Assembly: GCA_951406725.2 (NCBI GenBank)
Contig: OX597825.1
Span: 46,376,001-46,440,000, forward strand
Source of the DNA: Octopus vulgaris
Lineage: Eukaryota
Length of the DNA stretch: 64,000 nt
Direction of reading: 5' to 3'
Position numbers and translations under genes: made by a program. Position 1 is the stretch's first letter; every line of letters begins with the position of its first letter. The notes below the pieces were generated by a model. The model saw nothing but the letters and a program-made list of their open reading frames with translations, did not search any database and was not told the DNA's origin. This document shows, one piece after another, positions 23,391-55,496 of the stretch.

Positions 23391-23912
23391 ATATAAGAGA
23401 GTGGTCACTATATTGCTCACTCTAGCACCAGTTAATCCAAAAGGTTTCAACCACGAAAATACATGTTTCCCATGAAAGCCAGTACGACTGTTAGCTCACA
23501 CGGACAGGGCAAATAAAAAATAACAAAAATACAGATTATTTTGGGACAATTGTTTCGCTATTAATGAATTAAATGTAATATTACTTACAAAAATCCATTT
23601 GTAGCTCAAATCCAATTGAACCACACGCGTATTTATCGTTATGGTAAAATCTGGCGTGTGATTGAGTGGATTTCATCCAGATAGTCTTGGCTGACGAGCT
23701 ACAAATGGATTTTTGTAAGTAATATTACATTTAATTCATTAATAGCGAAACAATTGTCCCAAAATAATCTGTATTTTTGTTATTTTTTATTTGCCCTGTC
23801 CGTGTGAGCTAACAGTCGTACTGGCTTTCATGGGAAACATGTATTTTCGTGGTTGAAACCTTTTGGATTAACTGGTGCTAGAGTGAGCAATATAGTGACC
23901 ACTCTCTTATAT
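23391..23912. mobile_element. Inverted repeat (217-bp arms), Penelope-like pLTR remnant
   Basis: 23391-23607 is the reverse complement of 23696-23912; contains a hammerhead motif. Confidence 0.85.
23687..23762 (+). ncRNA. Type I hammerhead ribozyme (canonical core)
   Basis: TTGG-CTGACGA-GCTA[loop]TAGC-GAA-ACAATTGT-C-CCAA. Confidence 0.8.
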
Positions 23913-24117
23913 ATTATATTTATATATATATATATATATATATATATATATATATATGTATATAGGTATATATTATATATATATATATCAGAATTAAACA
24001 GCCGAAATCTGCGATGAGGCATCAGTTTCTGACTGAAGAATGAAGGCTTGAATGACTTGTTTGTCTTTTTGTTCGTCTCTTCGTGTATTTCACGTTATTT
24101 ATTTATATAAAGGTCTA

Positions 24118-24384
24118 TTATATATATATATATATATATATGTATGTAGGTATATATATATATATATATATATATATATATATATATATATATATATATA
24201 TATATATATATATATATATATATATATATATATATATATATATATATATATATATATATATATATATATATATATATATATATATATATATATATATATA
24301 TATATATATATATATATATATATATATATATATATATATATATATATATATATATATATATATATATATATATATATTATATAT
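24118..24384. repeat. (TA)n microsatellite
   Basis: Direct dinucleotide run. Confidence 0.97.
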
Positions 24385-27300
24385 TGATTGATTGATTATT
24401 GATTGATTCTAGTTTCAGCTTATGAGCTGTGGCCATGCTGGGGCACCGCCATTTGGTGTTGCTACTTGGTTTCACTTCATGGAGGCTTTCTAGCAACTGC
24501 TATTTGGTGCATGAGAGAGTTCGATGCAGCTGCCCTCATCTGCCCCTCCTGCCGTGAAGTTGGTTCATCTGGGACACCTGACAGGAAGAGATCCAGTTCC
24601 ATTTTAAAGACATCTGTATCCACCCCATGCAGGTCTCTCAGGTTCTTCGGGAGGATATTGAAGAGCTGTGGGCCTCGGAAGCCCAGGCTATCACAGAATC
24701 TTGTCCTACATCTTGATGGCAAGTTTGGAGTCCTAGGCACCACGCAGTGGCGCCCAGTTCTGGCATTTGCGTAACTCTCAATACCAAAGTTCAGGACACT
24801 TCCCTCCAGGACCTTCCAGATGTATATTATGGCGTATCTTTCCCGCCTACGCTCCAGGGAATATAATTTTAATCTCTTGAGTCTTTCCCAGTAGCTTACA
24901 TTCTGCATAGAGGCTATCTTCTTCGTGTAGCTTCGTTGGATCGCCTCAAGTTCTGTGATCAACTTGACACTGGATGGTGACCATAGCTGAGAGCAATAGT
25001 CAAAGTGGCTTAGGACAAGTGTCTTCCAGAGGACCATCATGGTTTCTTGTTCTCTTGTTCTAAAGGTTCTAAGAATCCATCCAGCCAGCCGTCTGCATTT
25101 CATTGTCAGTTTAGCAACATGTACATGAAAGGTCGCGTCATCACTCATGTGAATACCCAGGTCACGCACTGATTGTGCCTCTGGGATTGCAATCCCTCCG
25201 GGTCCAGTGTATTCATTGGGTATTGCATTCAGTTTTGCATGCTGATAGTATAAAGCTTGAAACTTTTCAGCATTGAACTGCATGCTATTCTTTTCAGCCC
25301 ACTTGTATATTTCGTCCAGCTCATATTGCAGGTGCTTAGTGTCTTCAGGGTTCTGTATTGCCTGTGAAACTTTTGTATCATCTGCATAACTTGTGATCGT
25401 GGCTCTCCGCGTGGCTGAGGGCATGTCTGAGAGGGCCATTATGAACAGTAGTGGTCCCAAAACAGTGCCCTGTGGAACACCGCTCACTATTTGCGTGCTA
25501 ATGGAAGTGACCCCATTGGCTGCTACCACCTGACTTCTATTCTTCAGAAAGTCATGAAGCCATTCTCCTAGTTTTCCAACTATGCCAAGATCACGCAGTT
25601 TGTGACATATCATTCCATGATCGACTTTATCGAAGGCCTTTGCGAAGTCGAGATATATGACTTCCACATTTGAGTGGTTGAGCAGTTGTTTCAGCACCCA
25701 GTCATAGTGCTGCAGGAGCTGAGTTAAGCAGCTTCTTCCTGGTCGGAAACCATGTTGGGTGTCAGGTAGCAAGTCATTTTCTTCAAGGAAGGTGATTAGT
25801 TTCCTTCTGACTATTCGTTCCATGACCTTGCTGATGTGTGAGGTCAGAGAGATAGGTCTGTAGTTCTTGGCCTCCGCTCTGCTACCTCCTTTATGAATAG
25901 GGCATATTTTACCTTCCTTCAGTTTTCTTGGAAGTTTGCCAGCTGCAAGGAAGCTCTGAAAGAGGAACTGCAGTGGTCTTGCTAGGACTCTCTTACATAC
26001 TTTTAGGAGGATTGCCGGGAATCCATCGGGGCCAATAGCTGAGTCTATTTTCATTTCATCTATAGCCTTTATTACATCGTCTTCCTTTATATCGATGTAA
26101 TTTATCGTCGCCGCCTCTGATTCTATATCTGCAGTGGTAAAGAAGTCAGTTGGATTGCTGATTTGGAAATGCCCAAGGGGTGGAGTGAAAACACTCTTGA
26201 ATTGTTCATTCAGTATTTCACTTACCCTCATTGGTTTTCCTGTGAGTGTGCTATCCTTTTCAAGGAGTGGCCCTATCCTACAGTGCACCGTAGCTGTTTC
26301 TTTGGCATACCTGTAGAAAGCTCTGGGGTTAGTTTTTATGTTGTCTATAGCCCAGGCTTCTTTGTCTGCTCTTTCCTTCTCATGGGAGAGTTGCAGACAA
26401 TTTTCAATTTCCAACAGTTTTATTTTCAGGCGGGACTTTTCACTGCTTTCAATTTGTTTGTTTAGGCGATTTGAAATTTTTGTACGCCGTCTCATTAAAA
26501 TTTTCCTCTCTCTGGGGATTTTGTTCTTGTGTACAGTGGCCTTTCTCTCTGGGACACATTTGTAGCATATGGCTTGCATTACAGACATGAATTGTTGAAG
26601 TATCATGTCGATGTCCGGCGAGGAGAGACATTCAGGCCAGTTTTGTTTGAGGATCTCTTTCTCAATTTGTTTCCAGTTTGCCTTATTGAAGTTCAAGCTG
26701 GAAAGATTCTGAGGGTTTCTTGTAGGCTGCATGTCCGTGCTCTCTTTTGGCCCGTACATGGTCAGCTCTACCATGTTGTGATCCGAGAGTAGTGTCGGTG
26801 TCACTTTCACATTATGGATGAGATCCATATTATTTGTGAAGCAGAGATCCAGTGTGTTACCTGCTCTGGTTGGTTGGAGTATTACTTGCTCCATGTACAG
26901 GGTGTTGATGAGGTTCAGGAGGGACCTCGCCTGTCCTCGTTCACATCTTGTCATTCCTGGGAGAGAAAGGCCCTCGGGCCATCTGACATTGGGTAGATTG
27001 AAGTCTCCCATGAGAAGTACACTTATGTGTTGTTCTAATGTGGTTAGAACTTCTTCTATTTTTAAAAGGCAGTCCTCAAACTTGCCCATATGACTTGGGG
27101 CATCTGGAGGGCGATATGTAGCACACACAACTACATCAAGTTGCCTTATGTGTACAATTAGTGTGTCACACACCGAGTTTGAGTATGACAAAAGGACCTG
27201 GGGTGTGAGGTCCCCACGGATGTACATAGCAACTCCTCCATGACTCCTTTCTTTCCTGTCGGTCCGTAGTACAACATACTGTGGTATGTGTAATTCCGCA

Positions 27301-54670: not shown

Positions 54671-54672
54671 AA

Positions 54673-55065
54673 CTAGCAGTATCGCCCGGCATTGCTCGGG
54701 TTTGTAAGGGAAATAATTATATAAGCATTTTTAGAGATGTGAAGTATAATAGCCATCTCAATATGGCTAACCACAAAGGGGGAGGGGTGTTACTGTAGCT
54801 TTTTACGTTCTGAGATTTAATAATAAATTTTAGAGAGTTACTTCCCTTATATATGTCAAAAATGGATTAAAAATGGGAAAAATTGATGGTAAATTTTTTT
54901 AAATCGTAGACTCATCGTAGACGCGCGCTAATACCCAGACGGTCTCGATATGAATCACGACTATAAGATACCCGGTTTTGGTTAAACTGCACCGCAAAAT
55001 GTGGGAGTAGTTAGGAATCTAAATCGTAGGAGACAGACACACAACCTCACTTTTATATATAAAGA
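54673..55065 (-). mobile_element. Complete non-autonomous Helitron of about 390 bp (family A)
   Basis: Minus strand A|TC start, 3' hairpin CCCGAGCAATGCCGGG and CTAG|T end. Confidence 0.88.
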
Positions 55066-55237
55066 TTTCCTCTATTTACATAATATTGAGGTCTCTTTCT
55101 TTCTTTTGTTATCTTACTGTTTTTACCAATATACATATATATATATATATATATATATATAAATATATATATAGTTACAGAGATGTACTTGCATAGCAAG
55201 TGACTTGATCTGAGATCGTGTGCTGGAACGAAAACAG

Positions 55238-55496
55238 TTGCAGCGTTGAAGGTGTTTATAAGCCATTTAAGAAACACACAAAAACCGTTAGATTCACTTC
55301 AACATTTAAATTTAATTTGTCAAAATATTTTCATCGCTTTGAGACCGCGACCTGTTAGCACGATATTTTTGTCAGTGAACAGGTCGTGGTCTCAAAGCGA
55401 CGAAAATATTTTGGCAAATTAAATTTAAATGTTGAAGTGAATGTAACGGTTTTTGTGTGTTTCTTAAATGGCTTACAAACACCTTCCACGCTGCAA
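55238..55496. mobile_element. Inverted repeat (about 118-bp arms), Penelope-like remnant
   Basis: 55238-55356 pairs with 55378-55496; a related degenerate copy lies at about 11440-11710. Confidence 0.75.
55368..55418 (+). ncRNA. Hammerhead-like motif with a G3-C8 swap
   Basis: TTTGTCA-GTGAACA-G-GTCG(loop)CGAC-GAA-AATATT-T-TGGCAAA. Confidence 0.6.

What the first reader, a model, noticed from the sequence alone, without database searches (positions are those of the whole stretch)
23687..55418. Hammerhead panel in which the core 3-8 base pair covaries (C-G, U-A, G-C) across Penelope/retrozyme-like families
Four unrelated short elements share one topology: stem I, a 7-nt core, stem II, GAA, a palindromic stem III, N17 and stem I'. 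Three of them are head-to-head inverted remnants. Their cores read CUGACGA, CUGUUGA, UUGACAA and GUGAACA, and positions 3 and 8 stay Watson-Crick in each. The C3-G8 tertiary pair is established from the full-length hammerhead structure. Inference: this lineage hosts a radiation of non-canonical hammerhead retroelements that CUGANGA-based searches would miss.
Basis: partly seen in the sequence, partly recalled or inferred. Interest (0 to 1): 0.8.

Follow-up and report, generated by a model that had tools for sequence, protein, structure and literature searches.

The report
Swapped-core hammerheads in Penelope retroelements
Four hammerhead-shaped RNA motifs sit in copies of Penelope-type jumping genes, and across such families in this genome two core letters stay paired in all four possible ways; the G-C and A-U forms were not found in the papers searched, and the motifs likely cut RNA in pairs, which is untested.

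Summary
All four motifs lie at the stated places. Each belongs to a large repeat family of minimal type I hammerheads with a palindromic stem III. Two are tandem non-LTR retrozymes: 533 nt with C3-G8, and 360 nt with U3-A8. Two are terminal repeats of Penelope-like elements (PLEs): C3-G8 with A6U, and G3-C8.

The G3-C8 core is the family state of a young RT + GIY-YIG PLE (4,475 exact matches; control 0), and its sister PLE has C3-G8. Outside the window I found the fourth pair, A3-U8, behind a PLE endonuclease. Of 23 lineages read, 22 are Watson-Crick at 3-8 (15 C-G, 5 U-A, 1 G-C, 1 A-U), 1 is U·G and none is mismatched.

U3-A8 and the dimer model are in print. Natural G3-C8 and A3-U8 were not found, but the key 2017 paper could not be read. 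Against strong catalysis: A6U and A9C are fixed in successful families, no compensation is seen within a family, and the window copies are remnants. Cleavage is untested. Verdict: new variant of a known kind.

The parts
23687..23762 (+). F1 hammerhead: C3-G8 core at 23691-23697, 49-nt stem II arm, 8-nt palindrome, C17 at 23758
23257..23941 (.). F1 insertion: a truncated unit of a 533-nt tandem non-LTR retrozyme plus an inverted arm (23257-23607) that lacks the first five core bases; it ends in a (TA)n tract
   Evidence: 43 of 43 tandem spacings are 533 nt
37330..37367 (+). F2 hammerhead: C3-G8 with U6, core at 37335-37341, ACGU palindrome, U17; this copy has a stem II mismatch
37090..37465 (+). 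F2 solo 3' end of a PLE (ends approximate); at L068 the same sequence follows a GIY-YIG C-terminus
48599..48641 (+). F3 hammerhead: U3-A8 core at 48605-48611, 4-bp stem II, ACCGGU palindrome, C17 at 48635
48359..48401 (-). F3 second whole hammerhead, on the inverted arm (core 48395-48389)
48182..48837 (.). F3 insertion: pieces of a 359/360-nt tandem non-LTR retrozyme with a 5' inversion
55368..55418 (+). F4 hammerhead: G3-C8 core at 55375-55381, bulged G at 55382, stem II, AAUAUU palindrome, U17 at 55411, 7-bp stem I
55173..55496 (.). F4 solo PLE terminal repeat: direct arm to about 55496, holding the likely start codon of the PLE ORF at 55468; inverted arm about 55173-55356 with the long tail but without G3-U4-G5
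54655..56770 (.). Larger repeat that carries this F4 copy as a passenger (ends approximate, class not determined)
11427..11613 (+). Older, decayed inverted F4 copy outside the finding; it keeps the G3-C8 core at 11579-11585 but has lost G12

Best explanation
The four motifs are minimal type I hammerhead motifs carried by two Penelope-like elements and two tandem retrozymes, and in the source elements they likely cut RNA slowly as dimers, likely under selection to keep bases 3 and 8 paired whichever pair is used. Shown: the anatomy, the family sizes, the link of the G3-C8, A6U and A3-U8 motifs to PLE ORFs, and the 3-8 pairing across lineages. Inferred: two motifs on a tandem or read-through transcript pair through the palindrome to build stem III; the 3-8 pair then forms, as it does only in the active fold; the cut falls after N17. 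In the retrozymes this would release unit-length RNA that can circularise and be copied by a PLE reverse transcriptase. In the PLEs it would trim the transcript, perhaps with help from the PLE protein. The inverted arms and (TA)n flanks are the usual marks of PLE insertion. The window copies themselves are likely inert.
For: Anatomy exceeds shuffles. On about 1.05 Mb of partly overlapping loci plus the window, the descriptor gave 13 clusters, against 5 in all from 12 decoy descriptors; 12 of 13 are Watson-Crick at 3-8. Of 23 lineages, 22 are Watson-Crick and 1 is U·G. Among the 8 that are not C-G, 7 are Watson-Crick (binomial p 0.0004); without the two chosen by the finding, 5 of 6 (p 0.005). 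In one RT tree the G3-C8 family is sister (100/100) to a C3-G8 family, and U3-A8 falls in two separate clades. In the compact class N3 and N8 switch together: by hand count of the 100 listed of 3,098, 61 are U-A, 29 A-U, 7 U·G and 3 mismatched (C3 excluded by design). In 56 F4 copies, departures from the commonest letter are 1.9% in the core, 1.8% in the palindrome, 19% in loop II and 5.5% elsewhere. 4 of 4 long-ORF F4 loci carry G3-C8 about 1.0-1.1 kb after the ORF. Stem III is unfavourable in the monomer for 6 of 8 motifs folded and cannot form in the other 2; for F3 the target dimer equals the cofold minimum. An engineered C3G/G8C double mutant partly restores cleavage in a PLE hammerhead (PMC11167929, passage).
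Against: No cleavage was measured. Successful families have fixed uncompensated core changes: U6 in 96 of 100 listed F2 copies, and C9 in 76 of 100 listed for the sister clade. A6C is known to lower activity in Mg2+ (PMC7151607, passages). No compensation appears within F4. The lineages are few and not all independent, 4 of the 8 outside motifs were read by eye, several clusters are single copies, and 3 of the 5 decoy clusters were also Watson-Crick. For 7 of 8 motifs the target dimer is not the cofold minimum, and in F4 the minimum pairs G3 with U17. One U3-A8 subfamily has A17, which could pair with U3. In the one reconstituted PLE, cleavage was not needed for insertion in vitro and no RNA ends were found at the cut site (PMC11167929). 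No partner PLE was found for F1 (0 of 93 motif hits) or F3 (0 of 57).
Confidence: 0.7

Rival explanations
1. The fold is kept for a job other than cutting, such as binding by the PLE protein, dimerisation, or control of splicing or translation just before the start codon. Catalysis is weak or lost in some families.
For: A6U and A9C are fixed in abundant families. The F4 motif lies between a branch-point/AG-like signal (443 matches) and the likely ORF start. Cleavage was dispensable in vitro (PMC11167929), and the role of PLE hammerheads is called unclear (PMC8557442, passage).
Against: The 3-8 pair was seen in the tertiary-stabilised structure and not in minimal, ground-state structures (PMC3884650, passage). 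Keeping it through at least three switches in one clade fits selection on the active site.
Confidence: 0.22
2. The variants are decayed canonical hammerheads that hitch-hiked in lucky source copies, and the pairing at 3-8 is chance plus ascertainment.
For: Few independent switches; two lineages were chosen by the finding; 3 of 5 decoy clusters were Watson-Crick; a U3·G8 subfamily exists.
Against: No mismatched state among 23 lineages, and 5 of 6 paired without the chosen two. G3-C8 and A3-U8 each differ from C3-G8 by two transversions. The core is more conserved than loop II across F4 copies.
Confidence: 0.08

Closest known systems
Minimal hammerheads of metazoan Penelope-like elements (Cervera and De la Pena 2014, PMC4209133)
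   Same: Type I fold, palindromic stem III, bulged base after A9, place in the terminal repeat next to an intron end, pairs on opposite strands 100-700 bp apart, and the U3-A8 variant (about 1,300 hits in Schistosoma). One U3·G8 row is in its supplementary alignment.
   Different: The text and alignment rows I read hold no G3-C8, A3-U8, A6U or A9C core; here these are family states in hundreds to thousands of copies.
Non-LTR retrozymes (Cervera and De la Pena 2020, PMC7229834; bioRxiv 10.64898/2026.07.22.740005)
   Same: F1 and F3 are tandem units with one type I hammerhead each, and their longest ORFs are only 54 and 70 codons. F3's 360 nt matches the 350-390 bp of mussel retrozymes.
   Different: F3 has U3-A8; F1 is longer (533 nt) with a 49-nt stem II arm. 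Circular RNA is not shown here and no partner PLE was found.
Natural U3-A8 hammerheads (Perreault et al. 2011, PMC3088659)
   Same: Compensatory change of the 3-8 pair in nature.
   Different: The section read reports only U3-A8 at this pair.
Engineered C3G/G8C rescue mutant (Frangieh et al. 2024, PMC11167929; review PMC8495972)
   Same: The same G3-C8 pair; it partly restores cleavage in a PLE hammerhead.
   Different: That one is made in the lab; here it is the natural state of a young PLE family, with U17 rather than C17.
Neptune/Nematis-type PLEs (features from PMC8557442)
   Same: RT, then a CX2-5CxxC linker, then a C-terminal GIY-YIG; inverted 5' copies, an optional tail, (TA)n targets.
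   Different: The clade was not placed against named references. The tail is about 60 nt rather than 30-40.

Membership tests
Hammerhead ribozyme, minimal type I | Three-way junction: stem I, core, stem II, GAA, A15.1-U16.1, H17 | tested here: met
   the window F2 copy has a weak stem II
Hammerhead ribozyme, minimal type I | Canonical core letters CUGANGA | tested here: not met
   Met by F1 only; F2 has U6, F3 U3-A8, F4 G3-C8. No Rfam hammerhead match
Hammerhead ribozyme, minimal type I | Watson-Crick pair between 3 and 8 | tested here: met
   4 of 4 in the window; 22 of 23 lineages
Hammerhead ribozyme, minimal type I | Palindromic stem III that needs a dimer | tested here: met
   Palindromes in 4 of 4; monomer stem III unfavourable or impossible in 8 of 8 folded; the target dimer is the minimum in only 1 of 8
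Hammerhead ribozyme, minimal type I | Self-cleavage after N17 | not testable with these tools
   No assay; the runs laid were contigs, which cannot show RNA ends
Penelope-like element (F4) | [quoted passage not shown] | tested here: met
   YVDD, CX3CX2C and YIGET motifs in a 1,025-aa frame; Pfam GIY-YIG E 4.6e-4, below cut-off, in 1 of 2 F4 fragments scanned. No single copy was verified whole from start to stop
Penelope-like element (F4) | Direct terminal repeats holding the hammerhead, 5' inversion, optional tail | tested here: met
   Direct repeats 4,261 nt apart at L191; two alternative 3' ends; inverted arms
Penelope-like element (F2) | Motif follows a PLE ORF on the same strand | tested here: inconclusive
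   1 of 10 copies held (L068) continues upstream into a GIY-YIG C-terminus; no RT was seen
Penelope-like element, Neptune or Nematis clade | Placement in an RT tree with named references | not tested
   The tree has no named references
Non-LTR retrozyme (F1, F3) | Short non-coding tandem units with one type I hammerhead each | tested here: met
   533 nt (43 spacings); 359-360 nt (11 spacings)
Non-LTR retrozyme (F1, F3) | Expressed as linear and circular RNA | not tested

The most novel reading that the evidence does not exclude
One animal genome carries young PLE and retrozyme families that use all four Watson-Crick pairs at hammerhead positions 3-8. These include natural G3-C8 (the classic lab rescue mutant) and A3-U8, both previously unreported and both cutting RNA. 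This would be evolutionary evidence that the active-site fold of PLE hammerheads is selected in vivo, and would mean that a large share of animal hammerheads is invisible to CUGANGA searches.
Probability: 0.45. Interest if true: 0.7.

Novelty: new variant of a known kind. Interest (0 to 1): 0.52.

Why it matters
Whether PLE hammerheads actually cut in vivo is open: they are slow in vitro, were dispensable for insertion in the one reconstituted element, and are absent from some PLE clades. The 3-8 pair belongs to the active fold, so keeping it through repeated double changes is a sequence-level sign of selection on that fold. These families give a natural test panel (C-G, U-A, G-C, A-U, U·G, plus A6U and A9C) in otherwise similar scaffolds. 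They also show a practical blind spot. Patterns for four variant classes gave about 19,000 exact matches, the same order as about 19,000 matches (control about 4,000) for one mostly canonical class. These patterns differ in stringency, so this is not a census.

Tried and rejected
Rfam: no hammerhead among 143 matches.

The top 30 DNA hits for F4 looked like a family census but are copies of one larger repeat. I left 29 of them, and the loci selected by a core pattern, out of the column counts.

Compensation within F4: none; 0 of 100 listed non-G3 copies are C3-G8. 5 are U3·G8; of these one belongs to a sister family and four look old.

A rule that N17 avoids pairing with N3: it fits F4 (U17, not C17) but a U3/A17 subfamily breaks it.

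Partner PLE for F1 and F3: none in the loci held.

Expression: no RNA holder listed on record. Four runs laid were contigs, with no splice joint or end pile-up listed. This is no evidence either way.

A MITE reading of the inverted elements was rejected: inversion points vary between copies and the same sequence is the terminal repeat of RT-bearing elements.

Metagenome relatives: 18 of 26 loci gave no readable motif or were duplicates; most lack a 3' end, and L260 duplicates L258.

Not held: Lünse et al. 2017, Przybilski and Hammann 2007, Nelson and Uhlenbeck 2008. Only 200 kb of position-blind genome sample was obtained, so no whole-genome family census was made.
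Full report
Setting. The window lies in a 2.8-Gb genome of 227 contigs and is full of (TA)n tracts and LINE-like ORFs. The best protein relative of the F4 element is labelled Octopus vulgaris at 55% identity, so I take the host to be an octopus; this is inference. I call the four motifs F1 to F4.

Observation. All four cores and their stems lie where stated. A descriptor with positions 3, 6, 7 and 8 free gave 7 hits in the window. 4 of the 7 have A6, a palindrome of 4 nt or more and a paired 3-8: F1, F3 twice and F4. 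0 of 20 dinucleotide shuffles gave such a hit. The F2 copy was missed because of a stem II mismatch. Three elements are head-to-head inverted, but only F3 has a whole core on both arms. Rfam found no hammerhead among 143 matches.

F1 and F3 are tandem retrozymes. The 40 best F1 hits are 100% identical and lie in arrays. All 43 spacings measured are 533 nt; F3's 11 spacings are 359 or 360 nt, and neither unit has an ORF over 70 codons. The loci I read end in (TA)n and often have an inverted 5' arm. No PLE ORF was found within 1.6 kb upstream of any F1 (0 of 93) or F3 (0 of 57) motif hit.

F2 is a PLE end with A6U. A pattern with 3, 6 and 8 free gave 6,355 matches (control 0). Of the 100 listed, 93 read CUGUUGA and 96 have U6. 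1 of 10 copies held runs upstream into a GIY-YIG C-terminus. F2 adds nothing to 3-8 covariation; its oddity is an uncompensated change.

F4 is the main result. The window copy rides inside a larger repeat shared by 29 of 29 other top hits, so I searched past it. A pattern with position 8 free gave 4,475 matches (control 0), and 97 of the 100 listed have C8. All 30 loci fetched have G3. Only 209 matches of a shorter pattern have another base at 3. Free copies start sharply near an AG that follows a branch-point-like signal (443 matches) and end at one of two sites about 60 nt apart, like the PLE tail described in PMC11167929. A protein search scored 150 of 2,643 candidates and found many copies at 95-99% identity with open frames up to 1,025 aa. 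4 of 4 long-frame loci fetched carry G3-C8 about 1.0-1.1 kb after the ORF, and L191 has direct repeats 4,261 nt apart. The ORF has YVDD, a CX3CX2C linker and YIGET. Its likely start codon lies in the repeat, at window 55468. I did not verify one copy whole from start to stop.

The fourth pair. While reading flanks I found an A3-U8 motif with a 6-bp stem I, a 2-bp stem II and the ACCGGU palindrome. It has 104 exact matches (control 0), and 99 of the 100 listed are A3-U8. The C-terminus of a PLE endonuclease precedes it in 4 of the 6 extra loci fetched. A wider pattern for this compact class, with C3 excluded, gave 3,098 matches (control 0). By hand count of the 100 listed, 61 are U3-A8, 29 A3-U8, 7 U3·G8 and 3 mismatched, spread over several loop variants. 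These rows are related copies, not independent events.

Covariation. On all loci then held plus the window (about 1.05 Mb, overlapping and partly selected), the strict descriptor gave 13 clusters: 7 C-G, 3 U-A, 1 G-C, 1 A-U and 1 U·G. Twelve decoy descriptors gave 5 clusters in all, 3 of them Watson-Crick. Adding F2, the sister PLE and 8 readable relatives from 26 metagenome loci (4 read by eye) gives 23 lineages: 15 C-G, 5 U-A, 1 G-C, 1 A-U, 1 U·G, none mismatched. Among the 8 that are not C-G, 7 are Watson-Crick (p 0.0004 at a chance rate of 0.25). Without F3 and F4 it is 5 of 6 (p 0.005). These p values ignore kinship. In an RT tree of 15 rows, F4 is sister (100/100) to a C3-G8 family from the same genome, and the two outside U3-A8 rows fall in separate clades. 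That is at least three switches in one PLE group if C3-G8 is ancestral; the root is a midpoint only and no clade test was run. Across 56 F4 copies not selected by a full core pattern, departures from the commonest letter are 1.9% in the core, 1.8% in the palindrome, 2.9% in stem I, 5.5% in stem II, 19% in loop II and 5.5% elsewhere.

Results against. No compensation appears within F4: 0 of 100 listed non-G3 copies are C3-G8. The sister clade (5,170 matches) has C9 in 76 of 100 listed and G8 in 99, and F2 has U6, so successful PLEs tolerate core changes expected to slow cutting. In folding, stem III is unfavourable or impossible in the monomer for 8 of 8 motifs, but the intended dimer is the minimum only for F3, and F4's minimum pairs G3 with U17. 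PMC3884650 notes that a G3-C8 variant works better with G17 than with C17; F4 has U17. The run search listed no holder on record as RNA, and the four runs laid were contigs, which says nothing on expression or cutting.

Mechanism. The best reading is slow, dimer-dependent, perhaps protein-assisted self-cleavage after N17 in the source elements, with selection on 3-8 pairing rather than on identity (0.70). The rival is a structural role with weak or lost catalysis (0.22), or decay plus chance (0.08). Cutting, dimer formation, circles and mobilisation of F1 and F3 by PLE proteins are inferred from the known families.

Literature seen. PMC4209133: parts 1-2 of 4 of the text, plus passages and part 2 of 3 of supplementary file 2; file 1 could not be searched and figure text was garbled. 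It reports U3-A8 in Schistosoma PLEs; the alignment rows I read hold C-G, U-A and one U·G. PMC3088659: passages and section 8, natural U3-A8. PMC11167929: part 1 of 4 and passages. bioRxiv 10.64898/2026.07.22.740005: part 1 of 5. Passages only: PMC3884650, PMC6765202, PMC8557442, PMC8495972, PMC7229834, PMC10085705, PMC7151607. Searches showed no report of natural G3-C8 or A3-U8, nor of octopus hammerheads. Lünse et al. 2017, which deals with PLE-associated hammerhead variants, and two papers on 3-8 exchanges were not held, and supplements I could not see may list such cores. The novelty claim is therefore provisional. The hammerhead numbering follows the papers above.

Verdict. The system, the dimer model and U3-A8 are known. 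Natural G3-C8 as the state of a young PLE, A3-U8, and all four pairs in one genome appear to be new variants, with activity untested. Interest 0.52.

Noticed in passing
L001:1073 (-); L243:1457 (+): A3-U8 hammerhead family behind a PLE endonuclease; 104 exact matches, part of a 3,098-match compact class with U3-A8, A3-U8 and U3·G8 subfamilies.
   Followed up: yes
L194:5392 (+); L199: Sister PLE of F4 with 1,312-aa frames; its hammerhead has C3-G8 but C9 and a non-palindromic stem III. 5,170 matches for the clade.
   Followed up: partly
L191:1200-1225: Branch-point-like signal and AG just before stem I of F4; most free copies begin there, which suggests spliced templates or an intron boundary.
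   Followed up: partly
G000:C1:70848756 and 70852733 (-); C1:59201871 and 59205339 (+): Direct pairs of compact hammerheads about 4.0 and 3.5 kb apart (U3·G8 and U3-A8); candidate full-length PLEs, not fetched.
   Followed up: no
window 54655-56770: Young dispersed repeat of about 2 kb (96-98% identical copies) that has captured an F4 remnant and other fragments; a helicase-like frame at 58374-58925 lies nearby (label recalled, not tested).
   Followed up: partly
window 34778-35650 (-): Truncated PLE endonuclease remnant flanked by inverted microsatellite-rich arms; no hammerhead seen beside it.
   Followed up: partly
window 18986-19900: Inverted element with a CUGAUGA on the plus arm (about 19663) but no fitting GAAA downstream; possibly a half core or another topology.
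   Followed up: no
window 24477-33465 and 37822-41022 (-): Three related copies and one more distant copy of an endonuclease-RT LINE, one with a 1,039-aa frame; another LINE frame at 42033-45311.
   Followed up: no
window 11972-12797: 826-nt inverted repeat with telomere-like units near its centre.
   Followed up: no
L135:206 (-); L142; L182: Older relatives of the retrozymes: an F3 relative keeps U3-A8 with a different, 8-nt palindrome; F1-like fragments at 74-80% identity.
   Followed up: partly
L246:2497; L245:4973: PLE relatives from other organisms: one has U3-A8 with C9, one has U15.1-A16.1.
   Followed up: no
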